DNA of 64,000 bases from an uncultured Candidatus Saccharibacteria bacterium (GCA_964532425.1 CAZHIA010000001.1:201481-265480); one strand, 5' to 3'. Shown: positions 42,751 through 60,305, numbered from the stretch's first letter. A program made the numbers and translations. The notes: generated by a model from the sequence alone, not told the origin.

Positions 42751-42776
42751 CATTTTACTGCATATGCAGTAAAATG
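42751..42776. promoter_or_regulatory. 26-bp perfect palindrome CATTTTACTGCATATGCAGTAAAATG overlapping the start codon of 42774..43511
   Basis: Shares the CTGCATATGCAG core with the 44-bp palindrome family. Confidence 0.8.
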
Positions 42777-43511
42777 TTGAATATATTAACCGTTTGGAGA
42801 GATGGAGGAAATTCAAACGGGAACGCAGCGAGTGTTATGAGACAAAAAGATAAAAAAATCAGCATTAAGTATGTAGTCAAAAAACATTTACCTGAAAAGA
42901 AATCGAATACGCCACCTCTGTTTACGCCGGAGGAAGTGGCGAAACTGAAGACCGCAGGTAGTGTTGTACTTGGTATTGTCGTAGCGGCCGGAGCACTGAC
43001 GATTGCGGCCATGGCTCCAAATGCTCTGCAGCTCATCAAATTTCTGCCAGGGTTGAACAAGCGAAATAAGCGTTATTCTGAGAGCGAAGAAATTGCCAAG
43101 GCGGTGTACTATTTACGGGACAGGGGATATGTGGAATTGTTACCTCGTGGCAATGATTATGAAATACGGGTTACAAAAAAAGGACACAAGAGAATTTTAA
43201 AATTTGACCTTCAGAAGCTGGAAGTCCCGCGACCCGAAAAATGGGATGGCAAGTGGTGGATTATTATTGCGGATGTACCGATTAATGAGCGCGTGCATGC
43301 AGGCTATTTGAGGGACAAGTTCAAAGCCATGTGCTTTTTCCCGCTCCAAAAAACCGTATGGGTCTATCCGTACGATCCGCGCGACCAGGTGGATTTTGTC
43401 TCCTCGTACTTTAGCTTGGAACGGTTTCTCACCATATTGCGGGCAGACAAGCTGGATCCAGAAGATGAAAAAGAACTCACTTCTTTCTTTAAGGAACACA
43501 GTATACTCTAA
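42774..43511 (+). CDS. PaaX-like protein: N-terminal TM segment + winged-HTH + PaaX-C/Cas2-like domain
   Basis: The wHTH region EIAKAVYYLRDRGYVELL... is followed by KWDGKWWIIIADVP...LRDKF....FPLQKTVWVYPYD, which matches the PaaX C-terminal pattern. Confidence 0.5.
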   Translation: MLNILTVWRDGGNSNGNAASVMRQKDKKISIKYVVKKHLPEKKSNTPPLFTPEEVAKLKTAGSVVLGIVVAAGALTIAAMAPNALQLIKFLPGLNKRNKRYSESEEIAKAVYYLRDRGYVELLPRGNDYEIRVTKKGHKRILKFDLQKLEVPRPEKWDGKWWIIIADVPINERVHAGYLRDKFKAMCFFPLQKTVWVYPYDPRDQVDFVSSYFSLERFLTILRADKLDPEDEKELTSFFKEHSIL

Positions 43512-43541
43512 GTATATCTAGAAAGTAATCCATATCCTGTA

Positions 43542-43585
43542 GTCATTCTACAAAAAGCTGCATATGCAGCTTTTTGTAGAATGAC
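43542..43585. repeat. 44-bp perfect palindrome GTCATTCTACAAAAAGCTGCATATGCAGCTTTTTGTAGAATGAC (family copy 1)
   Basis: Seen directly. It doubles as a bidirectional A-run/hairpin/T-run terminator. Confidence 0.9.
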
Positions 43586-43784
43586 TTTCATTAGGTAAAT
43601 TTAATGAGGGCATAATCAATTTCTCAAGCTTGACGCTTATGGTGATATGGTGTTTAAATAGAGAGTCCGCACGGACTTACCTGATCCGAATAAAACCTAA
43701 CTTGCTAACCACATGTTGGGTTCGGAAAGGGACAACTGTTGCGCTAGACACGCAATGGTACTTCAATTTGAAAGAGGATTATAA

Positions 43785-44495
43785 ATGTCTGCTAAGCACA
43801 GACCTGCAGAAGTTTTTCGTCCTGTTGACCGGCTCACAGACCTCTTCACCCGGGTATACCAGGAAATGAAGAAGGGTCAGCGCAGCCCGGAGATGGATAA
43901 GGCACTGCTGGATTCGCTCCAGTGGTATCACGAAAACCGTTTGGGGATTGTCATACGTACCGAACCGAAGAAGGCCGCTGTCACCCCTGAAGAAACTCAG
44001 AGGCTTCTTTCCATTCCGATATTTGATTCGACGATTGATTGGAGGATTCAGCGCTACTGCAAGCCGCTGGGCATTCACTACGTCGGCGAACTTTATCTTA
44101 TTGAATGGAAGTACCCCAGAGACCAGAAGCACTCGCAATCCGTGGCGCGGGCAATGGTGGAAGACTTTCTGATCGGCCTTGGCTTTCCTCCTGCGGCGAC
44201 GCTCGAAGAGCTCGACTGGAAACCGCCGTACGACAACGACGAGTTTCGTCGTCTGCTCGATCAGCCCATCGAAACCATAACAACCCAGCACTTTAGTTAC
44301 CAGAGGATATTTCTCGGGTGGAAATACGACAAGATGAGAGAAGTATTTATCGGAGATGCCTTTGGTAAATCCAAACGGGACAACGACTACTTCCGTTCTT
44401 TCCGGGAACACGGCAAGAAAGACAAAGGGCTGCACGCAGGGATGTGGGCAAGAGGCTGGAAGCGGCCCGTTGCATTGGAGGTGGCCAATGGTTAA
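43785..44495 (+). CDS. hypothetical protein
   Basis: 236-aa ORF, overlapping by 8 nt (ATGgtTAA) with the next gene. Confidence 0.5.
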   Translation: MSAKHRPAEVFRPVDRLTDLFTRVYQEMKKGQRSPEMDKALLDSLQWYHENRLGIVIRTEPKKAAVTPEETQRLLSIPIFDSTIDWRIQRYCKPLGIHYVGELYLIEWKYPRDQKHSQSVARAMVEDFLIGLGFPPAATLEELDWKPPYDNDEFRRLLDQPIETITTQHFSYQRIFLGWKYDKMREVFIGDAFGKSKRDNDYFRSFREHGKKDKGLHAGMWARGWKRPVALEVANG

Positions 44496-44736
44496 CTGCG
44501 GCAAGTGCGAGAAAGCGGCGCGGTGGCGGTTAATAACCAAGACCGAAGGTTTTGGGAATTCGGATGCTGGCGGTGCAGCCCATATCCGTTACGCCTGCGA
44601 TGGCCACAGGGACGAGGTGAAGGGGGAGATGGAAGTTACCATCGCTGACGGCGAACGAGCGTGCGGCAATCCGCTGTATCCGCAGTTCTCCAAACTCGGA
44701 TTCGGCCCCGTTCAAACCGTTCCGTTCCGGCAGTAG
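44488..44736 (+). CDS. small zinc-ribbon protein, hypothetical
   Basis: CGKC...C.GH motif. Translationally coupled to the upstream gene. Confidence 0.4.
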   Translation: MVNCGKCEKAARWRLITKTEGFGNSDAGGAAHIRYACDGHRDEVKGEMEVTIADGERACGNPLYPQFSKLGFGPVQTVPFRQ

Positions 44737-44855
44737 CAAGACATGTATTTACACAACCAGCATACGTGCTGGCACGCAGCGCGCGTCTCGGATTCTATCC
44801 GGACGCGCGCTTTCTAATTGTTCCCACAAAGGTCACCTTCGTTTATTCAAAATAT

Positions 44856-44886
44856 AAAACCACCCTTCGACAAGCTCAGGGTGGTT
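44856..44886. terminator. conserved bidirectional terminator hairpin AAAACCACCCttcgacaagctcaGGGTGGTT (family copy 1)
   Basis: Sits between convergent genes. Near-identical copies lie at 46025 and 56218. Confidence 0.8.
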
Positions 44887-44918
44887 ATGGAGACGAAAAG
44901 CACATGGCGCCGTTTTGC

Positions 44919-45128
44919 CTATTTTGGTTCATCGTGCCCGGGGTCGTCCAATCCAGCGGCGATGTTGACTGCCTCTATGGATCGCTGCATTGCTTCGTTG
45001 TCGACAACCTCCGCAACCTGGTCGTACGTTAGCATGGCTACCATAATTGTGGCTTCCTTCAGTTCCCTGTCAGTCATGAAAAGGTTAGCCCGCAACTTCT
45101 GCTCGAAGAATGCTCTTTTTTCTCTCAT
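44919..45128 (-). CDS. small hypothetical protein
   Basis: 69-aa ORF with a strong GGAGGAAAGT SD. Confidence 0.4.
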   Translation of the reverse strand: MREKRAFFEQKLRANLFMTDRELKEATIMVAMLTYDQVAEVVDNEAMQRSIEAVNIAAGLDDPGHDEPK

Positions 45129-45287
45129 ACTTTCCTCCGGTCGTAAGATAGCTTAGGATAGCATGGCGTACGTACGCTGTCCAGAATGGGCAAACCCGGC
45201 ACCTTTACAAATAGTCCCTGCATTGCTATTCTGAATTTTCCATGATCCGGCCTGCGGGCAGGGGATTGGATGGAGAGGAGGAAGTGA

Positions 45288-45629
45288 GTGATTAAGTCGA
45301 ATGAGCGGGAAAAAGGGGATGTGACGATCGTGGACATTAGCGGGCGAATATCGCTCGGGCAGGGTGCAGACAGTTTGAGGGAAATAACCATTGACCTGGT
45401 TCGCAGAGGTCGGAAGAAGGTTATTCTCAACCTGGCCGAAACTTCTTACATCGACTCCAGTGGTATAGGGGAACTCGTGAGCGGTTTTACCCGTCTGGCC
45501 AATCACGGCGCTGAGCTTAAGCTGCTGGTTATTGGAAAGCGGCTTAAGGACTTGCTCAAAATGATAGGACTTTATACAGTCTTCGACATGTTCGAGGACG
45601 AAAACGAAGCTGTCCGAAGTTTCCAGTAG
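45288..45629 (+). CDS. STAS-domain anti-sigma-factor antagonist (SpoIIAA-like)
   Basis: YIDSSGIGEL phosphorylatable-Ser motif. 113 aa, with a GTG start and a GGAGAGGAGG SD. Confidence 0.8.
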   Translation: MIKSNEREKGDVTIVDISGRISLGQGADSLREITIDLVRRGRKKVILNLAETSYIDSSGIGELVSGFTRLANHGAELKLLVIGKRLKDLLKMIGLYTVFDMFEDENEAVRSFQ

Positions 45630-45641
45630 TAGGGAGGGAGA

Positions 45642-45992
45642 ATGGTAAAATTCAACATCACGGAAATTCAGGATGTCACCGTCCTTGATGCGTCGGGCAG
45701 GATCACACTCGGCGAAGGCTCGGTAATGCTACGGGACACATTCCGCGCGCTGGTTGCCGAAGGGAAACGCAAATTCGTTCTGTGTGTCGGTGATGTCAGC
45801 TACATCGACTCTTCCGGCATCGGCGAAATGGTCTCCGGACAGCATGTGGTAACCAAGAGCGGCGGAGAAATCAAACTCGCCGCGCTCACCAAACGCGTGA
45901 AGGACCTGCTTCAGATCACCAAGCTTTATACCGATTTCAGCGTCTACGACACTTCCGAAGACGCCGTCGAGGCGTTTCTGAAGGCGAAATAA
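45642..45992 (+). CDS. STAS-domain anti-sigma-factor antagonist, tandem paralogue
   Basis: YIDSSGIGEM motif. About 40% identical to the upstream gene. Confidence 0.8.
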   Translation: MVKFNITEIQDVTVLDASGRITLGEGSVMLRDTFRALVAEGKRKFVLCVGDVSYIDSSGIGEMVSGQHVVTKSGGEIKLAALTKRVKDLLQITKLYTDFSVYDTSEDAVEAFLKAK

Positions 45993-46024
45993 TAAGCACA
46001 AACAAATGGGGCACGTCCCTACAC

Positions 46025-46058
46025 AAAACCACCCTAGCTAGAACAAAGGGTGGTTTTT
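46025..46058. terminator. conserved terminator hairpin AAAACCACCCtagctagaacaaaGGGTGGTTTTT (family copy 2)
   Basis: Seen directly after the STAS pair. Confidence 0.8.
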
Positions 46059-46176
46059 ATATATCTTTGATGGACAAAATCGTTTACGAAGATTACGAAG
46101 GTGACCTTTGTAAATTCAAATTAAAAAGGCGGCACTGCGTGAGTGCCGCCGTTCTGTTTTGACGGTCTATAAATAT

Positions 46177-46362
46177 TTAGCCTCCTCCTGGCTCTAGTTT
46201 TTCTCCACAGTAGGGACAACACCATACGCGGTTGAGTTGGGGCTCTTGCAGGGTGAAGTAAAATACACCCCAGAAAACAGCGCCGAGGTCTTGGAACTGC
46301 TTTACATGCATTCCGTATGGCCTGCCCACCCCTTTGGGGCACTTATGCTCCTTCAAAGACAA
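46177..46362 (-). CDS. small Cys-rich protein (CPYCGEK zinc ribbon), hypothetical
   Basis: The ORF starts with TTG. An own terminator lies at 46125-46165. The start is uncertain, and an internal ATG is possible. Confidence 0.3.
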   Translation of the reverse strand: MSLKEHKCPKGVGRPYGMHVKQFQDLGAVFWGVFYFTLQEPQLNRVWCCPYCGEKLEPGGG

Positions 46363-46474
46363 CCTCCTTCCCTTCGTTCTTGGCTTATATCTCCCCGTTT
46401 GATAATTCCCAAAAGACGCTTTATTTTACCAAAAACTTTCGCAAAAGCAAAGGCATATTTAATGTATCTAATGT

Positions 46475-46518
46475 ATTATTCTACAAAAAGCTGCATATGC
46501 AGTTTTTTGTAGAATAAT
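46475..46518. repeat. 44-bp palindrome ATTATTCTACAAAAAGCTGCATATGCAGTTTTTTGTAGAATAAT (family copy 2, 1 mismatch)
   Basis: Seen directly. Confidence 0.9.
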
Positions 46519-46638
46519 CATGATTGAGTATGGGAATATACGAAGATGACCATTGTATGGGGACCTTTGTAACACAAAACCACCGCATGAGCGGCGGTTT
46601 AAAGTTTTTTTGTGGGGATACCTGGCCTACTTCGCTTT

Positions 46639-46953
46639 TCAGGCTACGCTGATCTCTGTGAAAAAACCTTTAAGCATTTCTTTCAGAACTGTTTTTCCTT
46701 TGGTTGTTTTAAAATACCTTTCCCTTTTTAGTGCATCAAATTTGTTCGGAAAAGCTTCATAAAAAATTAATTCAAGCGGTCTGCGATTTCGGGTGGAGAT
46801 ATTTTTTCCAGAATTATGATCTTTAACTCTTGTTTTTAAATCTTCAGAGTACCCAATATAAAACAGTCTATCTTTCAGGCTGCGGAGAATATAAACATAG
46901 TAAAATTTTACTGGCATATGTTTGTTTATACTATTTTGGTTATAGTATATCAC
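46639..46953 (-). CDS. GIY-YIG nuclease-family protein (small, URI-domain only)
   Basis: FYYVYILRS..DRLFYIGYSEDLKTRVKDHNSGK....RP..LIFYE motifs. The start is probably the internal Met (MPVKFYYVY). Confidence 0.75.
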   Translation of the reverse strand: MIYYNQNSINKHMPVKFYYVYILRSLKDRLFYIGYSEDLKTRVKDHNSGKNISTRNRRPLELIFYEAFPNKFDALKRERYFKTTKGKTVLKEMLKGFFTEISVA

Positions 46954-46963
46954 TAATTAAAAC

Positions 46964-47100
46964 AGCCCTGAACCACTCGGCCTGAAGGCCTTGGGTACAG
47001 GGCATGTATCAGTCGCTCATGGCTGCACTAGCCCTGAACCAGTCATCCGCCCAAAGCGGATTCCGGTACAGGGCATATACCACTCGCACTTTCATGTATA
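46964..47100. repeat. two tandem ~66-71-nt hairpin-containing repeats (AGCCCTGAACC...GGTACAGGGCAT...ATGGCTGC)
   Basis: Seen directly, immediately 3' of the tmRNA gene on its strand. Confidence 0.7.
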
Positions 47101-47137
47101 TGGCTGCGCCATATACCCGAGCAAAGCGAGTGGTATA

Positions 47138-47526
47138 TGGTGGAGATGCCGGGAGTTAAACCCGGGTCCAAAACGTATCGATCTTCCCATTATTCACAAG
47201 ATTAGTCGGTTATTGTACCTCTATGATATCCAACCGACAACGAATCATAAAGGCTGATATACAAGTCTTGTTCCCGGCAGGTATATCGGCCACCGGGCTA
47301 GCAACCTCTAATGAACCCACTAACCCCGAGCGGAGGTGCGCGCGGGAGTGAGGTAACAACCTAAAGTTAGGCCATTACAGGTGCGAGGTCGGCGTTTTGA
47401 AACGCGGCCACTACCTTTTGCCAGGAATTGGCATTTGTTGGTTGATCGCAGGATTTTCGAGGTCAGCAATCGTGCTCGTCTTGCATATGAAAAGATGTCA
47501 AAGTTCTGTCAAAAACCGTCATCCCC
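47138..47526 (-). ncRNA. ssrA: tmRNA (SsrA), one-piece
   Basis: On the minus strand the 5' end is GGGGAUGACGG and the 3' end is GGACCCGGGUUUAACUCCCGGCAUCUCCACCA. The 7-bp acceptor stem has a G3-U pair (alanine identity). A T-arm with a 7-nt loop is followed by ACCA. An internal tag-like frame follows a UAGUG context, analogous to E. coli UAGUC-GCA: GCC GCG UUU CAA AAC GCC GAC CUC GCA CCU GUA AUG GCC UAA (AAFQNADLAPVMA*). Confidence 0.7.
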
Positions 47527-47823
47527 ATAAAAAACTTCCAGAGGATAGTCCTGTACCCGACTCAAAGGAGTGGTATCAGGGCATCCCCGTGGATAATACT
47601 GTAGCATAAATTTTCCGTCAGGTCAATAAATTGGGTAAAAGACGACTTTTATATGCGCTAATTTATGGCTTATATAAGCCATAAATATATATTAATATTG
47701 ACAATATGACTAAAATGTTATATAATATACGGATACTTTCCAAGTATCAAAAAGGCTTTGCTGTGTGCCTTAACCAAACACTTCACGGCTCTTTATTGAG
47801 CTTTCAAAGGAGGTTCATTCCCA

Positions 47824-48413
47824 TGAATGAACAGATTTTTGACACCATCACGGTCGAATTTGATATCCTGTATCATGCATCGATCGAGCTGAGTGAGAAT
47901 GGAACATTTTCCATCACTCAGAAGTGCCAAGACGACCACGCCACGGCCAAAATCGCTAACAAGGACATCGAAGCTCTTGAGGCAGCTCTTCGGGAGGGTT
48001 TTAGAAACCCTAAAAACCGGCATGCGATTCACAGCATCTCGATCACGTTCAACAAGATGCGGCTCCCTCGGATGCAGATGTATGTCCCGGACAGTCAGGA
48101 CGAAAACGGTTTTCGGCAAGGGCTCGGGGTGCATGGCTTCGATGGGTTTACATTCATTTCTGATTGTGACCCGAAGTCAAAGCTGGTCACGATTATGATC
48201 CATCCGCACCAGATCACCGACGCCGACAAGACCTACGAGCAAGTTTTTAAGGCCTTCGTTGGCTTTGCGAGAAAGACTGTGCAGTTTGCGCGGAGTGGCG
48301 ACGCGATTACTAACCTTATTCGCGCGCTGCGCAAGCAGCCGACGGATGAAGGCTACATCTCCCGGGCCATTCACACGGCCTACGGCGAGATGAGCAAGCA
48401 GGCTCGCTACTAG
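47824..48413 (+). CDS. hypothetical protein
   Basis: Start at the internal ATG with an AAGGAGG SD (MNEQIFDTITVEF...). Confidence 0.5.
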
Positions 48414-48462
48414 TCGCGCAGAAGTGTACTAAGGGAATTTGGACCACACCGGGAGGGTGTAA

Positions 48463-48645
48463 ATGAAGCTATTTCTGCTCGTTTTTGAAGACAACCAGCT
48501 GGAGCTGGTTGACGCCGGGTGCATTTACACTTCTCCGGAAGTCGCGGAGGGTGTGAGAGTTGTCCGTCAGGGAATGTGGCCGGATCGGACGCTTGTCGTC
48601 CGGCCTATGGATGCCGACACGCGGAAGAGTTTCGCCGCGGTTTAG
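48463..48645 (+). CDS. small hypothetical protein
   Basis: 60-aa ORF with a GGGAGGG SD. Confidence 0.4.
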   Translation: MKLFLLVFEDNQLELVDAGCIYTSPEVAEGVRVVRQGMWPDRTLVVRPMDADTRKSFAAV

Positions 48646-48701
48646 TCGGCCAAACCAAAAAGAGGGAAGATGAATCGAGCGTTGTCCTGTGACGACGCGC
48701 A

Positions 48702-48744
48702 CTGCCGCCAAGACATCTTCGGATGTTGAGGCGGCTTTGTTTTG
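48702..48744. terminator. repeated terminator hairpin CTGCCGCCAAGACATCTTCGGATGTTGAGGCGGCTTTGTTTT (copy 1)
   Basis: An identical 40-nt copy lies at 49645..49688. Confidence 0.85.
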
Positions 48745-48824
48745 TCCGCTTACAATATAAAAACCGCCACAACACCCAAGACTTCGGGTGCGGGCGGTGT
48801 TTGATGAGCGACCAGGCTGCTCGG

Positions 48825-49142: not shown

Positions 49143-49294
49143 TCTAACTTCCTCCCTACTTGTGATGTTGGAACACACATAAAGATGCCATGTTTATGGG
49201 GTATTGTCAATTCAGCGTAGGCTGCATGCAATTGACAAATACCATAGAAGAGTGGTATTTTTGTTTGTTAGTGAACAACCCAAAGGAGACCAAA

Positions 49295-49603: not shown

Positions 49604-49644
49604 AACGTTTGCACAATCTGAGTGCAGAACGGTCATCTTCTATA

Positions 49645-50657: not shown

Positions 50658-50812
50658 AAACCATTCGAAAACCGCTAGCCCTCCGCCAGCGGTTATATGT
50701 AAAAGAGGAACTGACACCTTGTTTGTTTATTAGAATATAGTACCGGAGGCTTCTGCTGGTGAATACATAGTCCTTTGTAGAATATCAAAATTTACAAAGA
50801 TTATCTTTGTGT

Positions 50813-53585: not shown

Positions 53586-54245
53586 ATGACCACTAAGGAA
53601 CAAGTGCTTACTTTAATTTTCCAAGCTGTTCCGTCTTTCCAAAATTCAAAGATTTGGAAAGAGCATTTAGAATTTTGGGGAGATACAGAAGAACGAGGCT
53701 TGTACAATGATACGGCTGAATTGGCTAGATATATGGCGGAACAATATAAGGCTGGGGAAACTAAGGAACTTCCAGCATTATTCACATTGATTGAAAAGTT
53801 GTACCTCGAGGGAGATCATTACGTCAAAGAATTGGCAACAATTGGATTCTTAGAAGATCTTCAAGGCCAATTTGGTAATGCTGAAATAAAATCTGAGGTA
53901 TTAGAAAAGTATCTTGGACCTGAATCACAAAAATGGTGGAACTATTTAAATAACATTTGGTCAGGCAAGCTAAAGGAAAAATATCAATGGTTCCATGAGC
54001 GTGTTACTGAAATCGTCAATGCGCTTGACCCCTGGTATTTAATTTCAGGAGGTGCCCCCAAAGATGAATATAGCCAGGAAGTTACCCGAATTATAGCTGG
54101 TCTGAAGGATTGCGAAACGGAAGAGGATGCAAGGCAGCTTGTACTTAAACATTTAGGTGGCGAAAACAGTAGCAAAGAAGCTTGCGCCAAGATTGCCCAG
54201 CAGGTTTTCAAAATTTGGGAACAAATATTATTTTCCAAGGAATAA
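53586..54245 (+). CDS. hypothetical protein (island gene 2)
   Basis: 219-aa ORF, low GC. Confidence 0.5.
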   Translation: MTTKEQVLTLIFQAVPSFQNSKIWKEHLEFWGDTEERGLYNDTAELARYMAEQYKAGETKELPALFTLIEKLYLEGDHYVKELATIGFLEDLQGQFGNAEIKSEVLEKYLGPESQKWWNYLNNIWSGKLKEKYQWFHERVTEIVNALDPWYLISGGAPKDEYSQEVTRIIAGLKDCETEEDARQLVLKHLGGENSSKEACAKIAQQVFKIWEQILFSKE

Positions 54246-54249
54246 TTGT

Positions 54250-55176
54250 ATGTGGCCATTTAAGAAAGAAAATAAAAAATTCATGCTGCTTCAATCGGAA
54301 AAAGAAGGCAGGCCGGTTTGGATAACTGTCGATGGCAGCTTGAAAAATTTAGCAAAAAAAGATGAAACTCCCTGGTGTCTTTGGCTTGGAATACAAATTG
54401 AATCCCAAAAAGGATTACCGGACGAAAAGGAAGCAAAAGAGTTGAATGATTTTGAGGATGAAATTCAGAATAAATTATCAAAAATTGGTAAAATTCATTT
54501 TGTTCTTAGAACTACCTGGAACGGCCATCGGGACTTGTATTTTTACTTAAGTAAGGCAAAAGAATCCCATGAACTCCTATTGGGTATTACAAATTTACCA
54601 AAACCGCCGAAACAATTTCAATATGAAATTTCAAAAGACCCAAATTGGCAATCTGTTAATTGGGTATTTGAGCAACTAGATAAACAGCCTAAATCAGACA
54701 ATCCGAAAGATGAGAATAGTGTGACTTTGTTTGCTTTCAACAGCAATGAGAAACTGAAATCTCTTGCATATAGGGCTTTGAATGATGCAATAGAATTTAT
54801 GAAGAAAGATGGAAAATTTAACCCTTTCTGTTTAACAGAAAAAGAACTTTGGCGTCCAAAGTCCATTGGCGTTAATGAAAATATTCAAGAAATAGAAAAA
54901 CACATTGGTGTCTTACAAGACGAAACCATTGCTGTTTACTGCCATAGTGGTACAATCGGCATTCCGCCTTTTGGTAAAGAGGTAAACTGGCCGACACAGT
55001 TTGCAATATTTGTAAAAGCTTATGATAAAAACGAAGATAAAGGGTACTTGATTTTTCAGATGTATCGTCCAAGGACTGAAGCGGAAGGATTTGCTATATT
55101 AGGAAATACCACAATAGCACCAACTCCTAATATTTTTATTCATAGCTGTTTTCACGAAGGTGGCCTTTGCAAGTAA
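54250..55176 (+). CDS. hypothetical protein (island gene 3)
   Basis: Start at the ATG of MWPFKKENKK... 308 aa, low GC. Confidence 0.5.
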   Translation: MWPFKKENKKFMLLQSEKEGRPVWITVDGSLKNLAKKDETPWCLWLGIQIESQKGLPDEKEAKELNDFEDEIQNKLSKIGKIHFVLRTTWNGHRDLYFYLSKAKESHELLLGITNLPKPPKQFQYEISKDPNWQSVNWVFEQLDKQPKSDNPKDENSVTLFAFNSNEKLKSLAYRALNDAIEFMKKDGKFNPFCLTEKELWRPKSIGVNENIQEIEKHIGVLQDETIAVYCHSGTIGIPPFGKEVNWPTQFAIFVKAYDKNEDKGYLIFQMYRPRTEAEGFAILGNTTIAPTPNIFIHSCFHEGGLCK

Positions 55177-55747
55177 TTTGGAAAAACGAATGAAAAGAAG
55201 AGGGCATCTGTGGTTGCGGATTTCAGAAGAATCTAATGCCTTAGATAATCTCCAAAAAGCATATTCATTTATCATTCAAACCCATTCTGATGAGAATGCT
55301 TGGAAATGGGTTATATTAAGTATCCACTCCGCTTTATTCAGTTTTGCTATATGCGCTTTAAAAGGTACAAGTACTATAAATGTAACTATTCAGACAAAAA
55401 AAGGTGAGAGATTGATTAGTTTTCCTGAAGCGATCGAAATGGTACAGGACGAGAATCGGATGAGAATGACCGTGATGAGTAAGCATCTCCAGTTAACAGA
55501 TGACGAAAAGCGCTCGATAGATAGGCTGCATACAGAATTTCGAAATGAATTAGAACATTACATACCTAAATTATGGGTAATTGAAGTTCCCATGCTGCCG
55601 AAGATGGTTACTCACTGCTTGGATGTAATTAGATTTTTAGCTATTGAGTCAGGTAATTACGATCATTTTAGTGGCTACCAAAAACGAAAAATCAAATCAC
55701 TGATTTTCCAAAGTAAGAAATTTCTTACAAAGATGACCTTCGTTTAA
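55160..55747 (+). CDS. hypothetical protein (island gene 4)
   Basis: 195-aa ORF overlapping the previous stop. The true start may be the internal Met (MKRRGHLWL). Confidence 0.4.
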   Translation: MAFASNLEKRMKRRGHLWLRISEESNALDNLQKAYSFIIQTHSDENAWKWVILSIHSALFSFAICALKGTSTINVTIQTKKGERLISFPEAIEMVQDENRMRMTVMSKHLQLTDDEKRSIDRLHTEFRNELEHYIPKLWVIEVPMLPKMVTHCLDVIRFLAIESGNYDHFSGYQKRKIKSLIFQSKKFLTKMTFV

Positions 55748-55826
55748 ATACCTGTTTCTACAGGTATTTTCATTTAGCATGGTATTATTATAGGAGGAGT
55801 GCTACCTATAATTTGGTAATAGATAC

Positions 55827-56150: not shown

Positions 56151-56180
56151 AAAGTACAAAAAGGTACCTGACACCATTTT

Positions 56181-56212
56181 GTTCCCGGATTTAACTCCCG
56201 GCATCTCAACCG
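56181..56212 (+). repeat. partial copy of the tmRNA 3' end (T-arm + acceptor 3' strand), inverted relative to ssrA
   Basis: gttcccggatttaactcccggcatctcaaccg matches ggacccgggtttaactcccggcatctccacca (the ssrA 3' end) at 27 of 32 positions. Confidence 0.75.
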
Positions 56213-56217
56213 TATAT

Positions 56218-56252
56218 GAAAACCACCCTTCGACTAGTTCAGGGTGGTTTTG
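56218..56252. terminator. conserved terminator hairpin AAAACCACCCttcgactagttcaGGGTGGTTTT (family copy 3)
   Basis: Differs from copy 1 at only 3 loop positions. Confidence 0.8.
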
Positions 56253-56255
56253 TGT

Positions 56256-56864
56256 TTACAAGGCACCGGGTACCTTTTCTGTTCCTTGCTTGGCAACTGC
56301 GAGGAAGACGTATTTGCGGGCCTCCCACTTCTTGCGGTCAGAAATCTCGCGGCTGTCTAAATACTTAAGACATGGACCTCCTAAACTCATTAATTCGGGC
56401 TGCCAGCGGGTGGACATGTAATACATCATCGGCGCTATCACGATTGGGGACTGAGATTTCTTTTTACGAACAAGCAGCTTATTACCTTGGTCTTCGTAGC
56501 CGCCACCCAAAGCCCAAACGAAGACTCCTGGATATTCTTTCAAGATCTCGGGGCAAATGGCGGAAAAAGCCAACCAGTGAATGATGGAAGCCGGGGCCAT
56601 ACCAAAGGCGTCCAGCTCCCTGAGGACCGTTGTGGTAATCATTTCGCGTTCGTTCAAAAATCCTCGAATCTCTACGGTTTCGGTTACATGTCTGCGGTAA
56701 CTATCGTACTTGTCTCTGACCGTTTGGGAAATACAAGTCATCCGTTCCTGGGCATGCGGAGTTTTCCGGTGGGCCGCCCGAAACATTTCTTCAAATGTTT
56801 TGGAGCGGTCAATGTTCACCGTAACCGGCAGATGTATGCCAAAAACTTCCTGTGCCTCAATCAT
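56256..56864 (-). CDS. hypothetical protein
   Basis: 202-aa ORF with normal GC. Confidence 0.5.
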   Translation of the reverse strand: MIEAQEVFGIHLPVTVNIDRSKTFEEMFRAAHRKTPHAQERMTCISQTVRDKYDSYRRHVTETVEIRGFLNEREMITTTVLRELDAFGMAPASIIHWLAFSAICPEILKEYPGVFVWALGGGYEDQGNKLLVRKKKSQSPIVIAPMMYYMSTRWQPELMSLGGPCLKYLDSREISDRKKWEARKYVFLAVAKQGTEKVPGAL

Positions 56865-56977: not shown

Positions 56978-57019
56978 ATTATTCTAAAAAAGCTGCATAT
57001 GCAGCTTTTTGTAGAATGA
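56978..57019. repeat. 44-bp palindrome family copy 3 (CATTATTCTAAAAAAGCTGCATATGCAGCTTTTTGTAGAATGAT)
   Basis: Seen directly. A TTGACA-N17-TAGACT promoter-like sequence lies about 45 bp downstream. Confidence 0.9.
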
Positions 57020-57121
57020 TAAGATTTTCAATGATTACCTTTGCGTGTCTGTCTTGACAAATTATAGTAGTCATAGTAGACTTTGTAGTCTTATAAAGAT
57101 ATGGAAGTAGGGGGGATTAAA

Positions 57122-57571
57122 GTGGAGGATATTGAAAGAAAGATTGTCCGTCCGGCAACTCGCCGTGACTGGCCGCGATTCGCATATGGTTTGGACAAGG
57201 CTCGAAAACTATTTGTGGCAGACGGAACGGAAGTGTATTTCCGTCATCTGCAAGTGGTGGAAGTCCACCGTCCGGTAACCCGTACTTTCACTAAATGGTG
57301 GGGTCTCAGAAAGTACCAAGAATCGTTCGATGAAATCGAAGAGGCGATATACTTCCAACCATCCGGTAGTGAGACGGCGTCGGACTACTTCTATTTCCGC
57401 TTCTATGAAGAAAAAGTGCTCTTGAAGGACTTGCCGGACGAAACTCTGTTCATTGCGACGGATAAGTTTGTGCGGAGGGGTGGTCGCATTGTAAGGAAGA
57501 AGAAGTCTTGGCTGAAGAAACTTATTTCAGCCCTCACACCCGCACCTGAGCCGGAGATTGTTCCTGCCTAG
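57122..57571 (+). CDS. hypothetical protein
   Basis: GTG start after an AGGGGGG SD. The longer frame starts at 57101. Confidence 0.45.
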   Translation: MEDIERKIVRPATRRDWPRFAYGLDKARKLFVADGTEVYFRHLQVVEVHRPVTRTFTKWWGLRKYQESFDEIEEAIYFQPSGSETASDYFYFRFYEEKVLLKDLPDETLFIATDKFVRRGGRIVRKKKSWLKKLISALTPAPEPEIVPA

Positions 57572-57704
57572 GCCATCAAACACGAATCGTTTAAAGTCTT
57601 TCAAGGCCGGGGGAGTTAGTGGCCTGTTAACCCCTTTCTCATTCGCAAGCGCCCCGCTTGCGAATTTTTATTTGTCAAACAACTGTGGTACCTTTTCCGT
57701 TCAT

Positions 57705-57747
57705 ATGGATGGTGGACTGAAGGAGTAAGGTGGAAATCTCTGTCATT
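57705..57747. repeat. direct repeat ATGGATGGTGGACTGAAGGAGTAAGGTGGAAATCTCTGTCATT (right copy)
   Basis: Partner of 50813..50851. Confidence 0.7.
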
Positions 57748-57796
57748 GACGAATACCAGTTAGTGTGGTATTTTTGACTGTCTAAGGAGGACACAG

Positions 57797-58423
57797 ATGG
57801 AACTGCATTACGATTTGTCTCTCACGCGGATAGCGGATCCCGGCATGTATCAAAGGACTTCCAATTACGATACATTCTTTAATGAGCATTCGCACCCCTC
57901 TCTTCAGGAGATCGACGATTTTCTGGCCGCGGCGTTTGGCTACCGGATGACCGAGGAACATGATTTCGAGAACCGGCTCATGCCGACATCCGCAGCTGCC
58001 GCTGCGCCGAATAATCCCATCGAGCAATACTTCGTGCGAACAGCCATTTTGGCGAGGAATGCGCAACGCAGCGCCCGTCAAGGATTTCAGGCTCCGGCAA
58101 CGGACGAAGCCCGATTGCTCATCGACTATGAAGAGGCGCAAGACCGGAAGTTGAGCGTCTTCGTCGCCATCGGTATCGGGATCAAAAGAGCCGCGGCACT
58201 TATTGAAACCGAAGACCGCTTGCACAAAATGGTCCTCGAGCATCCTGACGGCGGCTTTGCTCTCCTCAAAGAAGTTTGGCAGGAGAACAGAGACGGCATC
58301 CAACAGGAGATCAACGAGCGTGCTGAGCAACTCACCGAGGATGAGGCCAAAACGCTGCTGGCAAAGGCGTTCGGTCTCGACTTCGAGCAGTACAACGAAA
58401 TCTTTTACGAACAGCCGTCTTAG
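57797..58423 (+). CDS. hypothetical protein
   Basis: 208-aa ORF with an AAGGAGG SD. Confidence 0.5.
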   Translation: MELHYDLSLTRIADPGMYQRTSNYDTFFNEHSHPSLQEIDDFLAAAFGYRMTEEHDFENRLMPTSAAAAAPNNPIEQYFVRTAILARNAQRSARQGFQAPATDEARLLIDYEEAQDRKLSVFVAIGIGIKRAAALIETEDRLHKMVLEHPDGGFALLKEVWQENRDGIQQEINERAEQLTEDEAKTLLAKAFGLDFEQYNEIFYEQPS

Positions 58424-58519
58424 GGGCGGCCTGCTGCCAATCGCAGAGCACACAGAACAAAGTGTGCTCTTATTTTATTGCAATTATGTTTGGCCACTTG
58501 AATGACCTTTGAAAATTTA

Positions 58520-58558
58520 AACGCTCGTCCAAGAATTCCAATCTTGGACGAGCGTTTG
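58520..58558. terminator. bidirectional terminator
   Basis: aaacgctcgtccaagaattccaatcttggacgagcgttt, a perfect 14-bp stem. Confidence 0.85.
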
Positions 58559-58572
58559 CGTGTGGTGGCGGG

Positions 58573-58965
58573 TTAGGCCACCTTGAAGTTCCACTGGCCG
58601 TTGTTGTGGACGTGGAGGTAGGAGGGGACGCCGGACTTGCTCGGGACTTGGAATACGATTACGGCGTCGGTCCCTGGGTAGTACTCCACGTTCGAGATGT
58701 AGTGGAAGTCTCCACCGCAGATGAGGTGGTGAGACTCGGCTTGGCGCCTGGACCGCGGACAGTCGTGGGTTACGGTATCGATCCGCACGTGGACTTCACC
58801 GCCATTGTAGTTTACGGCGACGATCGTCCGTGTTCCGCTTGCGGTATTCGGAATATCGAACGACGCAAATTCCAGTCCGCCGGGAAGACTCTCGAGCACA
58901 GTGGCTCGCCTGAGCACTTCTCGCGCTCTGGCAACATCGAAAGAAACGGTTGTGTTTGTGGACAC
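58573..58965 (-). CDS. hypothetical protein
   Basis: 130-aa ORF. Confidence 0.45.
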   Translation of the reverse strand: MSTNTTVSFDVARAREVLRRATVLESLPGGLEFASFDIPNTASGTRTIVAVNYNGGEVHVRIDTVTHDCPRSRRQAESHHLICGGDFHYISNVEYYPGTDAVIVFQVPSKSGVPSYLHVHNNGQWNFKVA

Positions 58966-59451
58966 TTTAGTGCCTCCTTAGAATCCCTCATCCTGTTAGG
59001 GACTGCTTAGTCTATAATAAACAGGGTAGTTTGTCAATGGCTTTTTTAATAAGTTAAGGTCGTTCCAGGACTGGAAAATAACAAATTTCTTAGATAAATA
59101 TAAAGACGCTCTCATTTCGAGAGCGTCTCAATTGCGAGCCATAGCGTTGGGATTCCGACGACGAGCATGGAAGCCGCTATGTGTCTGTTGACTGAACGGG
59201 GTGCGGTGCGGAAAACCATACAGCCTCCGCAGAGAACAAGGAATAATCCGAGCAGCAAAAGAAGCATCTGTCCCTCCTTAACTGATAATGGTAATAAAGT
59301 AGGGAGTTGGCGTCAATAGTTGGATTTTTTTCTTTTGATCGAATTCATTACTAAATACCCCCGAAAAAGTGGTATTTTTGTATATCTTGACATATGCTTA
59401 AAAATATGCTAGAATAATTGTTAAAATCAATTCCAAGTTTAAGGGGGTAGT

Positions 59452-59907
59452 ATGGAAGTCCTCGATTTAACTTTCTGCAAAACGACTCAAGGTGGCAAGT
59501 ACCACCTTGGCCGCGTCGATCTCAATTCGATCGCCGACGAGCAAGTTCGCAGATTCGTCGAAACCCTGGTCCGCACTAAGCAAATCGTGTTCGACTGGGG
59601 GATGGATGTCTTCTGGGTCCACCCTACGCCGTTTGCGATAAACTACGAAACCGGCGCGATTCGCCGGACCGACACCAACGCCGAGATCGGCAACGATGGC
59701 TGGATCCCGTGCGATCCGCTGGACCTGCATTCGGCCCTCTCCTCGGTATTCGAAGGGGAGTGGGGACCGAGTTCGGTGGACAGCATCCTGAGCATGGAAT
59801 GTTCGGGGGTGCGTGTTGACCTCTGCGGCACAAAGACGTACGGCCCAGAGGATCCCAAGGGGTTTATGGAAAGCCTCAGGCGCGAGCTGGTTTCGCAACA
59901 GGGATAG
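59452..59907 (+). CDS. hypothetical protein
   Basis: 151-aa ORF with an AAGGGGG SD. Confidence 0.5.
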   Translation: MEVLDLTFCKTTQGGKYHLGRVDLNSIADEQVRRFVETLVRTKQIVFDWGMDVFWVHPTPFAINYETGAIRRTDTNAEIGNDGWIPCDPLDLHSALSSVFEGEWGPSSVDSILSMECSGVRVDLCGTKTYGPEDPKGFMESLRRELVSQQG

Positions 59908-59916
59908 GAGGGTGTC

Positions 59917-60138
59917 GTGAAATTGTTCGTCTACTGCTTTACTGGCCAAGAGAGCTCCCTCATCTTTACATCGCCGCTCGACTCAGAAGCGATGTGGGCC
60001 TACTTGGCCTCTCAAGACGGGGTGAGCGTCGAAGACGCCAAAGAGCAGTATCGCATGCAGGTCAGGGAGGTAAACCCTGCCGAGACTACTCAGGTAGTGA
60101 ACTTCTACTGCACTGACGGTCTTATTACTCTGAGGTGA
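59917..60138 (+). CDS. small hypothetical protein
   Basis: GTG start with a GGAGGG SD, coupled to the upstream gene. A terminator lies at 60160-60200. Confidence 0.4.
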   Translation: MKLFVYCFTGQESSLIFTSPLDSEAMWAYLASQDGVSVEDAKEQYRMQVREVNPAETTQVVNFYCTDGLITLR

Positions 60139-60261
60139 GGCGGGTGCACGGAAATAGCCTGGAATTCCAGGCAACAACGGTGGCCGTTAACTCGTGCCAC
60201 CGTTCTTTTTATTTATAGGTAAACCGTATAAGATCACAAACATCGTTTTAACCCCACGTCT

Positions 60262-60305
60262 ATTATTCTACAAAAAACTGCATATGCAGTTTTTTGTAGA
60301 ATAAT
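60262..60305. repeat. 44-bp perfect palindrome TATTATTCTACAAAAAACTGCATATGCAGTTTTTTGTAGAATAATGA (family copy 4)
   Basis: Seen directly. Confidence 0.9.

What the first reader, a model, noticed from the sequence alone, without database searches (positions are those of the whole stretch)
42751..60305. Family of near-identical 44-bp perfect palindromes (core CTGCATATGCAG) punctuating an accessory gene region
Four copies of ATTATTCTACAAAAAGCTGCATATGCAGCTTTTTGTAGAATAAT lie at 43542, 46475, 56978 and 60262 with 0-1 mismatches. A shorter variant, CATTTTACTGCATATGCAGTAAAATG (42751), overlaps the start codon of a PaaX-like wHTH protein. All occur in intergenic spacers of the roughly 18-kb region full of small unknown ORFs. 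Each can form a 20-bp hairpin flanked by A- and T-runs, giving bidirectional terminators. Each is also followed within about 50 bp by a sigma70-like promoter. This level of conservation, far beyond what termination needs, suggests a protein recognition site. Candidates are an operator for the adjacent PaaX-like regulator, a recombination or cassette-boundary site, or an uptake-type signal. A degenerate half-site copy (ctttgtagaat..atttacaaag) sits at 50779-50810, next to the island's left repeat.
Basis: seen in the sequence. Interest (0 to 1): 0.75.

Follow-up and report, generated by a model that had tools for sequence, protein, structure and literature searches.

The report
Palindromic sites of a PaaX-like protein
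Five long DNA palindromes in this accessory region are most likely the binding sites of the small PaaX-like DNA-binding protein encoded between the first two, because relatives of that gene in eight other, very distant, bacteria are each bracketed by their own matched pair of palindromes.

Summary
The repeat family is real. The core CTGCATATGCAG occurs exactly five times (chance 0.12), and four copies are 42-46 bp near-perfect palindromes.

The main new result is comparative. The gene between P1 and P2 (true start 42837, 224 aa) has a winged helix plus a Cas2-like domain, and its best structural match is E. coli PaaX. In 8 of 8 homologous loci I could fetch (24-55% identity, three named by their source as Patescibacteria), the gene is bracketed by two direct copies of a locus-specific 32-46 bp dyad. 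One copy overlaps a sigma70-like promoter just before the ATG. The other starts 0-5 nt after the stop. No neighbouring genes are shared.

P1 is itself a promoter (TTTACA-17-TAAAAT) with the core in its spacer, as in two homologues. PaaX is reported to bind TGATTC-N27-GAATCA, a site of the same size.

Best reading, at 0.6: these are cognate operators of an autoregulated PaaX-like protein, here spread to three more spacers. Termination is not the conserved function. Cassette, uptake-signal and REP-like readings lack support. Binding itself, and the role of the extra copies, are untested.

The parts
42747..42780 (.). P1: the short, imperfect upstream-type dyad TTTACATTTTACTGCATATGCAGTAAAATGTTGA. 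It contains two overlapping divergent sigma70-like promoters: plus strand TTTACA-17-TAAAAT (42747-42775, 10/12) and minus strand TCAACA-17-TAAAAT (42780-42752, 9/12). The conserved core lies in the spacer.
   Evidence: The same -35/core/-10 layout is seen in L023 (TTTACA-17-TAAAAT) and L019 (TTTACT-17-TAAAAT).
42837..43511 (+). Gene for the PaaX-like protein (224 aa): a winged helix plus a Cas2-like (PaaX_M) domain, with no PaaX_C domain.
   Evidence: Pfam PaaX_M, E 1.7e-13. P0001 is 100% identical and 224 aa. Alignment A1. AlphaFold model, pLDDT 76.7. Foldseek top hit is PaaX 8A39, E 5.7e-4, followed by Cas2 structures.
43541..43586 (.). P2: a perfect 46-bp palindrome starting 30 nt after the stop codon. 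This is the downstream-type copy that completes the bracket around the gene.
   Evidence: I9; -33.7 kcal/mol.
46475..46518 (.). P3: a 44-bp palindrome with one G.T asymmetry. It lies between the 3' end of a GIY-YIG gene (46639-46953, minus strand) and the 5' region of a 73-aa minus-strand ORF (46121-46342).
56978..57021 (.). P4: a palindrome with a 1-nt deletion in the left arm and one T.G asymmetry. It lies between the divergent genes 56256-56864 (minus) and 57101-57571 (plus).
60262..60305 (.). P5: a perfect 44-bp palindrome (dyad symmetry extends with 2 mismatches to 60258-60309). It lies in a convergent spacer, 12 nt upstream of the stem of a canonical bidirectional terminator (60321-60347).
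   Evidence: (I11).
50760..50784 (+). Degenerate right arm TGAATACATAGTCCTTTGTAGAATA. Its right flank (to 50812) is 79% identical to the stretch formed by the right arm and right flank of P4, so it is a remnant of a segmental duplication.
   Evidence: (families D2 and D5).

Best explanation
The palindromes are the cognate double-stranded DNA sites (operators) of the small PaaX-like protein encoded at 42837-43511.

Proposed mechanism:
- A homodimer is held together by the Cas2-like domain and places its two winged helices about three helical turns apart.
- The winged helices read the outer blocks ATT(C/T)TAC...GTA(G/A)AAT, which lie about 31 bp apart.
- The A/T tracts and the CATATG centre provide shape and flexibility.
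- P1 embeds the gene's own -35 and -10 elements, and those of a divergent promoter, so binding there would repress the gene (autoregulation) and probably the divergent operon.
- P2, just beyond the stop codon, is the second, stronger site of the bracket. Its most likely role is looping with P1, or a roadblock and insulator at the 3' end.
- P3, P4 and P5 are further P2-type sites in this accessory region. They would put neighbouring transcription units under the same protein, or they are simply dispersed copies.

Shown: the repeat family, the protein architecture, the conserved gene-plus-two-dyads module, and the promoter overlap.
Inferred: binding itself, repression, looping or roadblock, and any role of P3 to P5.
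For: 1. Module conservation.
- In all 8 independent homologue loci fetched (L018, L019, L020, L023, L024, L027, L029, L031; 24-55% protein identity in alignment A1), the gene is flanked by two copies of one locus-specific dyad of 32-46 bp.
- Where the dyad is asymmetric enough to orient (L024, L027, L029), the two copies are in direct orientation.
- Each 10-20 kb locus has exactly two copies.
- An unbiased repeat search recovers the bracket in five of the six loci it was run on.
- Only this gene is shared between the window and those loci; the neighbours are not.

2. Co-variation with the protein.
- Outer arms differ between species and protein subfamilies, but the two copies within a locus match.
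- On 12 sites of the close subfamily, 87.8% of dyad cells pair against 69.5% in shuffles, 15 of 22 pairs change on both sides, and the covariation score is 0.479 against 0.174 (0 of 500 shuffles).

3. Promoter overlap.
- A top-scoring sigma70-like promoter candidate overlaps the upstream copy in each locus.
- Its -10 element ends 6-10 nt before the ATG in 7 of 8 homologue loci, which suggests leaderless or near-leaderless mRNA.
- L029 has a perfect TTGACA-18-TATAAT.
- The window's P1 is TTTACA-17-TAAAAT.

4. Protein architecture.
- PaaX_M domain.
- The model shows a helix-wing unit plus a ferredoxin-like domain.
- Best structural match is PaaX 8A39, then Rv0674, then Cas2 structures.
- P0077 matches the PaaX model TIGR02277 at E 6e-10.

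5. Site size.
- E. coli PaaX is reported to bind TGATTC(N27)GAATCA, 39 bp in all (PMC9493321, read). That is the same scale as these 32-46 bp dyads.

6. Orientation of the centre.
- The asymmetric centre is ACGACCGT in L024 but ACGGTCGT in L027 and L031 relative to the gene. This fits a symmetric DNA reader better than a strand-specific RNA loop.

7. Placement.
- The upstream copy lies at or before the predicted transcription start, so it is not in the gene's own mRNA.
Against: - No binding data exist, and the protein family has no characterised member.
- P5 in the window, and the downstream copies of L027, L029 and L031, lie in convergent spacers with no promoter to control.
- P2 to P5 are conserved over all 38 inner positions, more than a typical operator needs.
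- Non-Watson-Crick dyad cells are G.T on the coding strand 8 times and A.C only 2 times. This hints at a sense-strand hairpin.
- The dyad centre is conserved within protein subfamilies although the winged helices would contact the outer blocks. That is not explained.
- The conserved hydrophobic A-P-N segment might be a membrane anchor, which would be unusual for a repressor.
- The sample is 9 loci out of a family of 1100 clusters at E 1e-30 or better.
Confidence: 0.6

Rival explanations
1. The palindromes act mainly as nucleic-acid hairpins (RNA 3' hairpins that terminate or stabilise transcripts, or insulators between transcription units), independently of the PaaX-like protein. The link with the gene would only reflect how that gene is insulated from its neighbours.
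For: - Very stable predicted hairpins: -22 to -34 kcal/mol for P2 to P5.
- In the window the inner part reads A5-GCTGCATATGCAGC-T5, which resembles a terminator, and P2 passes the terminator scan.
- Downstream copies start 0-5 nt after the stop codon in the other loci.
- Asymmetric dyad cells are G.T on the sense strand 8 times against A.C 2 times, and 4 against 0 in downstream-type copies.
- The two copies in L031 differ by a compensated C-G to T-A change.
Against: - In L018, L020 and L023 the polarity is T-run, stem, A-run. L031 and L024 have no U-tract. So intrinsic termination is not conserved.
- Upstream copies overlap the promoter and lie before the transcription start.
- P1 and P4 lie between divergent genes.
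- P5 and P3 have canonical terminators beside them.
- In L027 and L029 the central 14-16 nt do not pair.
- A generic hairpin would not need the same sequence at both ends of one gene, nor arms that change with the protein.
- The 8-to-2 bias is not significant (about p = 0.05 one-sided).
Confidence: 0.17
2. Gene plus palindromes form a selfish or mobile unit. The Cas2-like domain would be a nuclease or recombination factor acting on extruded hairpins or cruciforms at the dyads, in analogy to RAYT and REP, or to IS200/IS605 ends. P3 to P5 would then be dispersed solo copies or cassette boundaries.
For: - The gene is tightly bracketed by matched hairpin-forming repeats in 9 of 9 loci, as RAYT genes are by REPs.
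- The module appears with unrelated neighbours in a distant, unplaced bacterium.
- P3 to P5 are discrete 44-46 bp units with unrelated flanks.
- The Asp on strand 1 of the Cas2-like fold is invariant (D146).
- Perfect dyad symmetry is kept at positions that vary between copies.
Against: - There is no HUH/Y1, integrase or transposase domain in the protein or anywhere in 38-64 kb.
- No target-site duplications are visible.
- Synteny is stable in related genomes (L020 with L023; L024 with L025 and L026), which argues for vertical inheritance.
- Other loci have only two copies each.
- No copies in phage, plasmid or viral collections.
- No family-like matches in genome or metagenome scans.
- One extra copy (50760) arose by segmental duplication, not insertion.
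Confidence: 0.13
3. The sites belong to a different, unlinked host factor (a nucleoid protein, a restriction-type enzyme recognising CATATG, or a DNA-uptake machinery), or they are a chance or generic terminator consensus.
For: - The centres are 6-bp palindromes typical of restriction sites (CATATG, GATATC, CGGCCG).
- Several homologue genes sit beside type IV pilus genes.
Against: - Chance is excluded.
- Hits to the inner 22-mer in 185,579 genomes are 12 isolated terminator-like sequences; the two I read lack the outer arms.
- There are 0 copies in the other 46 kb of the window.
- Uptake signals are short and occur in hundreds to thousands of copies (established knowledge).
- An unlinked factor does not explain why arms co-vary with this protein and always bracket its gene.
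Confidence: 0.05

Closest known systems
PaaX repressor of phenylacetate catabolism (E. coli, Pseudomonas) and its operator TGATTC-N27-GAATCA
   Same: - An N-terminal winged helix followed by a Cas2-like dimerisation domain (Pfam PaaX_M; best Foldseek hit 8A39).
- An unusually long operator made of inverted outer blocks about three turns apart.
- The gene is autoregulated by promoter occlusion (PaaX at Px, per PMC9493321).
   Different: - No PaaX_C effector domain (224 aa against about 305).
- The score is far below the PaaX equivalog cut-off.
- No paa genes nearby.
- Different half-site sequence.
- The centre and A/T tracts are also conserved.
- A second copy of the site immediately follows the stop codon, which I do not know to be described for PaaX (my own knowledge, not searched).
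- An invariant hydrophobic A-P-N segment.
REP sequences and their RAYT transposases (REPINs)
   Same: A gene bracketed by hairpin-forming palindromic repeats of about 30-45 bp. Further copies of the same repeat lie in intergenic spacers.
   Different: - The protein is not a Y1 HUH transposase.
- The bracket copies are direct rather than inverted.
- No GTAG-type 5' tetranucleotide outside the stem.
- Five copies, not hundreds.
- Only two copies in each other locus.
Global repressors of mobile elements with dispersed palindromic operators (for example KorB with the OB sites of IncP plasmids)
   Same: One short palindromic sequence is repeated almost identically in several intergenic regions of an accessory DNA segment. 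Some copies are at promoters and some are far from any promoter.
   Different: - Different protein fold (ParB-like against winged helix plus Cas2-like).
- Sites of 13 bp against 42-46 bp.
- No plasmid or ICE functions are linked to this region.
- This comparison rests on my own knowledge and was not tested.
Intrinsic bidirectional terminators
   Same: In this genome the inner part is an A-run, a GC-containing stem and a T-run that reads the same on both strands.
   Different: - The outer 12-15 bp of each arm are conserved too.
- The polarity of the A/T runs is reversed in homologous loci.
- Two copies lie between divergent genes.
- Canonical terminators lie beside P3 and P5.

Membership tests
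PaaX-type transcriptional repressor and operator | N-terminal winged helix followed by a Cas2-like middle (dimerisation) domain | tested here: met
   Pfam PaaX_M, E 1.7e-13. The model has helix 82-95, wing 99-112 and a beta-alpha-beta-beta-alpha-beta domain at pLDDT above 90. Foldseek: 8A39 PaaX E 5.7e-4 with probability 1.0, then Cas2 structures at probability 0.96-1.0.
PaaX-type transcriptional repressor and operator | C-terminal PaaX_C helical domain that binds phenylacetyl-CoA; score above the TIGR02277 cut-off | tested here: not met
   The protein ends right after the Cas2-like domain (224 aa). There is no PaaX_C or PaaX_N hit. P0001 has no NCBIfam hit. P0077 scores 39 bits against a cut-off of 264.55.
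PaaX-type transcriptional repressor and operator | Operator of two inverted blocks separated by about 27 bp (TGATTC-N27-GAATCA) | tested here: inconclusive
   The layout and size are similar: T(C/T)ATTC-N30-GAAT(G/A)A in P2 to P5, and dyads of 32-46 bp in 8 other loci. The sequence differs and binding is untested. The PaaX site is taken from PMC9493321.
PaaX-type transcriptional repressor and operator | Linked paa catabolic genes | tested here: not met
   No paa-type domains among the ORFs scanned in 38-64 kb.
Intrinsic (Rho-independent) terminator | GC-rich stem-loop followed directly by a U-tract, placed at the 3' ends of transcription units | tested here: not met
   Only P2 (plus strand) and P1 (minus strand) pass the scan. 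P1 and P4 lie between divergent genes. In L018, L020 and L023 the T-run precedes the stem, and L024 and L031 lack a U-tract.
REP/RAYT (REPIN) system | Associated gene encodes a Y1 HUH transposase (Y1_Tnp) | tested here: not met
   The only domain found is PaaX_M. No HUH motif is among the invariant columns.
REP/RAYT (REPIN) system | Tens to hundreds of copies dispersed genome-wide | not testable with these tools
   Only 64 kb of this genome is available. It has 5 copies in 17.5 kb and 0 in the other 46 kb. The genome scan gave no hit from this organism, but I cannot tell whether its genome is in that collection.
Integron cassette array (attC sites) | Adjacent IntI tyrosine recombinase; imperfect attC hairpins with extrahelical bases; co-oriented promoterless cassettes | tested here: not met
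   No integrase domain in the ORFs scanned. The sites are perfect palindromes. Genes between them lie on both strands, and several have their own promoter-like sites.
DNA uptake sequence (DUS/USS) | Short motif (about 10-12 bp) over-represented throughout the genome | tested here: not met
   No copy in window 1-42700 or 60310-64000. The conserved unit is 38-46 bp.
MITE or Correia-like miniature element | Terminal inverted repeats with target-site duplication; presence/absence polymorphism | tested here: inconclusive
   No duplicated bases flank P2 to P5 by my reading, and flanks are unrelated. No related genomes were available to test polymorphism.

The most novel reading that the evidence does not exclude
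The small PaaX-like proteins (winged helix plus Cas2-like domain; 1100 clusters at E 1e-30 or better, with all four source-named relatives from Patescibacteria) together with their two gene-bracketing dyads form a previously undescribed self-contained module. In it the protein recognises, and perhaps cuts or remodels, extruded hairpin or cruciform DNA at its own boundaries. That would be a non-HUH analogue of the REP/RAYT relationship. This genome would have caught it in the act of dispersing solo palindromes into an accessory region next to ssrA.
Probability: 0.12. Interest if true: 0.85.

Novelty: new variant of a known kind. Interest (0 to 1): 0.58.

Why it matters
If the reading is right, three things follow.

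1. A large, uncharacterised protein family gets a concrete, testable function: a sequence-specific DNA binder with a readable recognition code. In each genome the target can be read directly from the two dyads that bracket the gene. The family has 1100 clusters at 50% identity with E 1e-30 or better, and all four relatives that carry an organism name are Patescibacteria. Patescibacteria are organisms for which, to my knowledge, little is known about transcriptional regulation.

2. It explains why an operator can be 40-46 bp long. The PaaX-type dimer separates its two DNA-reading heads by about three helical turns.

3. The conserved operator-gene-operator bracket and the apparently leaderless promoters are features that, to my knowledge, have not been described for PaaX-type proteins. 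They can be tested with simple in vitro binding and reporter assays.

For this particular genome, it marks five spacers of an ssrA-linked accessory region as probably controlled by, or visited by, one protein.

Tried and rejected
1. Looking for the element elsewhere.
- Scan of 185,579 representative genomes with AAAARCTGCATATGCAGYTTTT: 12 isolated hits; the two I read are plain terminators without the outer arms, and the organisms are unrelated.
- JGI metagenome scan with CTGCATATGCAG-N5-TGTNGAAT: 3 chance hits, none palindromic.
- IMG/VR scans with both patterns: 0 hits.

2. Retrieving the rest of this genome.
- The exact-protein look-ups returned only two short Logan contigs from run SRR11567520. 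One breaks at P2; the other runs from a duplicated terminator to P4.

3. Mobile-element origin of the protein. No homologue in plasmids, phages or IMG/VR. A profile scan of IMG/VR found only one truncated relative without a dyad bracket.

4. Prophage or defence island. PHROGs and PADLOC found nothing for 20 proteins of the region.

5. Paralogous cassettes between palindromes. An all-against-all BLASTP found only the two STAS proteins and one weak ORF pair as paralogues.

6. Alternative sigma-factor promoters within P2 to P5 (sigma-H, sigma-F/G, sigma-E/K consensus recalled from memory). Spacings did not fit, so I dropped the idea.

7. Mirror-image positions of the variable bases in P2 to P5 as proof of hairpin selection. 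I rejected this as a discriminator, because a symmetric dimer predicts mirrored free positions too.

8. Placing the organism. The best alcohol dehydrogenase hits are only 70% identical and are spread over Bacteroidota, Chloroflexota and Cyanobacteria.

9. Literature. No paper links PaaX-like or PaaX_M proteins with Cas2-like or Patescibacteria, and none of the ten papers found for PaaX-like, PaaX family, PF20803 or PaaX_M appears from its title or abstract to deal with this family.

Full report
**1. What is in the sequence**

The 12-mer CTGCATATGCAG occurs exactly five times, at 42758, 43558, 46491, 56993 and 60278. Dinucleotide shuffles give 0.12 on average. The longer half-pattern CTGCATATGCAG-N5-TGTNGAAT matches nine arms against an expectation of 0.00.

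Four copies are long zero-loop palindromes:
- P2, 43541-43586: perfect, with 23-bp arms.
- P3, 46475-46518: one G.T asymmetry.
- P4, 56978-57021: a 1-nt deletion in the left arm and one T.G asymmetry.
- P5, 60262-60305: perfect, and extendable with 2 mismatches to 60258-60309.

P1 (42747-42780) is shorter and shares only the core and part of the right arm.

By my reading, P2 differs at four outer positions and P4 carries an indel. The inner 38 bp are 95-97% identical in the pairwise comparisons reported. The sequence outside the palindromes is unrelated. Predicted hairpins are very stable, at -16 to -34 kcal/mol.

There are no copies in the remaining 46 kb of the window.

**2. Gene context**

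A codon-usage score and ORF map, together with Pfam, give this order:

| Coordinates | Strand | Feature |
|---|---|---|
| 41119-42605 | minus | two genes of unknown function |
| 42747-42780 | | P1 |
| 42837-43511 | plus | PaaX_M-domain gene |
| 43541-43586 | | P2 |
| 43785-44495 | plus | gene of unknown function |
| 45288-45992 | plus | two STAS genes |
| 46121-46342 | minus | 73-aa ORF |
| 46475-46518 | | P3 |
| 46639-46953 | minus | GIY-YIG gene |
| 47138-47526 | minus | tmRNA gene (Rfam, 124 bits) |
| about 50-56 kb | | several genes of unknown function, then a low-GC island with a STAND-like NTPase, DUF7674 and DUF695 |
| 56256-56864 | minus | gene of unknown function |
| 56978-57021 | | P4 |
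| 57101-60138 | plus (mostly) | genes of unknown function |
| 60262-60305 | | P5 |
| 60321-60347 | | canonical bidirectional terminator |
| 60363-60944 | minus | gene of unknown function |

So P1 and P4 lie between divergent genes. P2 lies between tandem genes. P3 lies between two minus-strand units. P5 lies between convergent genes.

No recombinase, transposase, phage or known defence family was found.

The promoter and terminator scan finds a 10/12 promoter inside P1 (TTTACA-17-TAAAAT) and a 9/12 one on the other strand. One promoter lies 33 nt after P4. There is no promoter-like site (9/12 or better) on the plus strand within about 60 nt after P2, P3 or P5; a 9/12 minus-strand site lies just right of P2.

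**3. The protein**

The alignment of 30 homologues shows that the family starts there. The start is therefore 42837, and P1 lies 56 nt upstream of it rather than on it.

- The protein has a PaaX_M (Cas2-like) domain.
- The AlphaFold model is very confident (pLDDT above 90) for most of the C-terminal ferredoxin-like domain. It is moderately confident for a helix-wing unit.
- Foldseek puts E. coli PaaX (8A39) first, Rv0674 second and many Cas2 structures after that.
- A distant member (P0077) hits the PaaX model TIGR02277 at E 6e-10, far below the cut-off.
- There is no PaaX_C domain.
- An invariant hydrophobic segment with an A-P-N motif precedes the recognition helix and is modelled poorly. 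It could be helices 1-2 of the winged helix or a membrane anchor.
- The family is large. A profile search finds 1100 clusters at E 1e-30 or better. The four relatives that carry an organism name are Patescibacteria (Doudnabacteria, Zambryskibacteria, Patescibacteria group).
- No homologue is in plasmid or phage collections. IMG/VR holds only one truncated relative.

**4. The decisive comparison**

One look-up returned no DNA. The other eight gave independent loci with 24-55% identity to the window protein.

In all eight the gene is bracketed by two copies of one locus-specific sequence with dyad symmetry:

| Locus | Bracketing dyad |
|---|---|
| L018 | CATTATCATTTTTGGTGGATATCCACCAAAAGTGATAATG |
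| L020 | CATTTTACATTTTGGTGGATATACACCAAAATGTAAAATG |
| L023 | CATTTTACCTTTTTACGCATATGCGTAAAAAGGTAAAATG |
| L019 | ACATTTTAATGCATATACATTAAAATGT |
| L024 | TACACTCTTCTTACGACCGTAAAGACAGTGTA (twice, identical) |
| L027 | TGTTGTTTATA-N16-TATAAACAACA |
| L029 | TGTCTAATTTAA-N14-TTAAATTAGACA |
| L031 | CCCCTAT(C/T)TCTCACGG(C/T)CGTGAGA(G/A)ATAGGGG |

- The upstream copy ends within 23 nt of the ATG or overlaps it. For L029 this holds after correcting a start that was called too early (30 nt).
- The downstream copy starts 0-5 nt after the stop.
- Where the dyad is asymmetric enough to orient (L024, L027, L029), the two copies are in direct orientation. The downstream copy is the more perfect dyad in the close subfamily.
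- Each 10-20 kb locus has exactly two copies.
- An unbiased repeat search recovers the bracket in five of the six loci it was run on.
- BLASTP of all ORFs shows that only this gene is shared between the window and those loci.

The conserved unit is therefore dyad, gene, dyad. P1 and P2 are that unit in the window.

**5. What the dyads look like across the family**

In the close subfamily, the conserved parts are the outer block ATT(T/C)TAC, its mirror image, and the centre G-N-ATAT-N-C. The segment between them is always A/T-rich but differs between species and stays self-complementary.

On 12 sites, 87.8% of dyad cells pair against 69.5% in shuffles. Fifteen of 22 pairs change on both sides. 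The covariation score is 0.479 against 0.174, reached by 0 of 500 shuffles.

In three of the four distant-subfamily loci (L024, L027, L031) the centre is ACGRYCGT, and the arms are species-specific.

Mirror covariation is expected both for a hairpin and for a symmetric dimer site that co-evolves with its protein. It therefore does not separate the two models.

**6. Evidence for a DNA operator**

- A top-scoring sigma70-like promoter candidate in each upstream region overlaps the upstream dyad.
- Its -10 element ends 6-10 nt before the ATG in seven of eight homologue loci. L029 has a perfect TTGACA-18-TATAAT ending 6 nt before the ATG. This suggests leaderless mRNAs, with the dyad covering the -35 element and the spacer.
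- The window's P1 has the same layout as L023 and L019 (-35, core in a 17-nt spacer, -10 TAAAAT), though with a 61-nt leader.
- The upstream copy is thus not part of the gene's own transcript, yet it has the same sequence as the downstream copy.
- The asymmetric centre is inverted in L024 relative to L027 and L031. This is unimportant to a symmetric DNA reader but not to an RNA loop.
- Published work gives the PaaX operator as TGATTC(N27)GAATCA (PMC9493321). So a PaaX-type dimer binding two blocks about three turns apart accounts for the unusual 40-46 bp length. In P2 to P5 the blocks read T(C/T)ATTC-N30-GAAT(G/A)A.

**7. Evidence against termination as the conserved function**

- In L018, L020 and L023 the T-run is 5' and the A-run 3' of the stem on both strands.
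- L024 and L031 have no U-tract.
- In L027 and L029 the central 14-16 nt do not pair.
- In the window, P1 and P4 lie between divergent genes.
- P3 and P5 have ordinary terminators next to them.

**8. What remains unexplained**

- Downstream copies lie in convergent spacers in L027, L029 and L031, as P5 does here. They therefore do not control a downstream promoter. Looping with the upstream site, or a roadblock at the 3' end, are inferences only.
- P2 to P5 are conserved at essentially all 38 inner positions.
- Asymmetric cells are G.T on the sense strand 8 times and A.C 2 times, and 4 to 0 in downstream-type copies. This hints at an additional sense-strand hairpin role but is not significant.
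- I cannot say why this genome has three extra copies. They have no shared flanks and no target duplications. One further degenerate right arm at 50760 arose with its flank by segmental duplication of the P4 locus.
- Genome-wide counts could not be obtained.
- The genome and metagenome scans found nothing related, and the organism has no close relative in the databases.

**9. Verdict**

The interpretation 'operator of the adjacent PaaX-like regulator' is the best supported. I put it at about 0.6. It is now backed by a family-wide rule seen in nine of nine loci.

The rivals are:
- a protein-independent hairpin or insulator (0.17);
- a selfish hairpin-ended module with the Cas2-like domain as its enzyme (0.13);
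- an unlinked factor or a generic motif (0.05).

The kind of thing (a repressor with palindromic operators) is known. Three features are, as far as my searches show, undescribed: the small PaaX-like family, its gene-bracketing pair of operators, and the leaderless promoter layout.

Noticed in passing
window 47138-47526 (minus strand) and 56177-56216 (plus strand): A complete tmRNA gene (Rfam, 124 bits) lies inside the region. A 40-nt copy of its 3' end (88% identical) lies 9 kb away in inverted orientation. The two flank a stretch of genes of unknown function that includes the low-GC island. The inverted, not direct, orientation suggests a rearranged or inverted ssrA-targeted island. No integrase was found.
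   Followed up: partly
window 39651-55743 (nine sites: 39651, 40642, 44826, 46095, 46540, 50794, 50898, 55154, 55727): A second dyad motif, ACAAAGGTSACCTTTGT, has 9 matches at 3 mismatches or fewer against 0.07 expected. All lie in the same accessory stretch. Three lie 10-22 nt to the right of P3, of P4 (a weaker match at about 57030) and of the degenerate copy. It may be the site of a second regulator or a small hairpin.
   Followed up: partly
window about 50900-55750: A low-GC island (33-37% against about 52%) encodes an 807-aa STAND/AAA-like NTPase, a DUF7674 protein, a DUF695 protein and a 185-aa protein of unknown function, all co-oriented. PADLOC and PHROGS found nothing. It could be an undescribed defence-type module.
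   Followed up: partly
window 48701-48743 and 49644-49686; 44856-44889, 46025-46058 and 56219-56252: Two 43-nt terminator-like hairpins are 100% identical to each other. Three terminators share the stem AAAACCACCCT...AGGGTGGTTTT. So whole regulatory elements, not only the palindromes, are reused across this region.
   Followed up: no
window 46537-46578 and 50876-50917: A 42-nt inverted repeat (86% complementary) flanks the 4.3-kb segment that holds the GIY-YIG gene, the tmRNA gene and four ORFs. The left arm lies just right of P3 and the right arm about 90 nt right of the degenerate palindrome arm. It is a possible inversion or recombination footprint.
   Followed up: no
L018-L031 (homologue loci), upstream of each PaaX_M gene: In seven of eight loci the best -10 hexamer ends 6-10 nt before the ATG and no Shine-Dalgarno sequence is visible. 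This implies leaderless or near-leaderless mRNAs for this gene family.
   Followed up: partly
L020, L023, L024-L026: In several of these loci the PaaX_M gene sits directly downstream of type IV pilus genes (pseudopilins with N_methyl, PilM, PilN). In L024-L026 it also lies about 1.3 kb from a diversity-generating retroelement (bAvd plus reverse transcriptase). A functional link to pili or DNA uptake was not examined.
   Followed up: no
window 19956-27965: A block upstream of the finding encodes an 852-aa protein of unknown function, a ClpB-like double AAA protein (562 aa), a protein with TrwB/TraG coupling-protein domains (427 aa) and a TPR protein. It may be a remnant of a conjugative or defence system.
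   Followed up: no
Logan contigs L013 and L014 (run SRR11567520): Independent assemblies of the same organism break exactly at the repeats. One contig ends in P2. Another starts in the duplicated terminator at 49657 and ends in P4. Perfect palindromes longer than the k-mer size fragment de Bruijn assemblies, so such elements will be under-sampled in metagenomes.
   Followed up: partly
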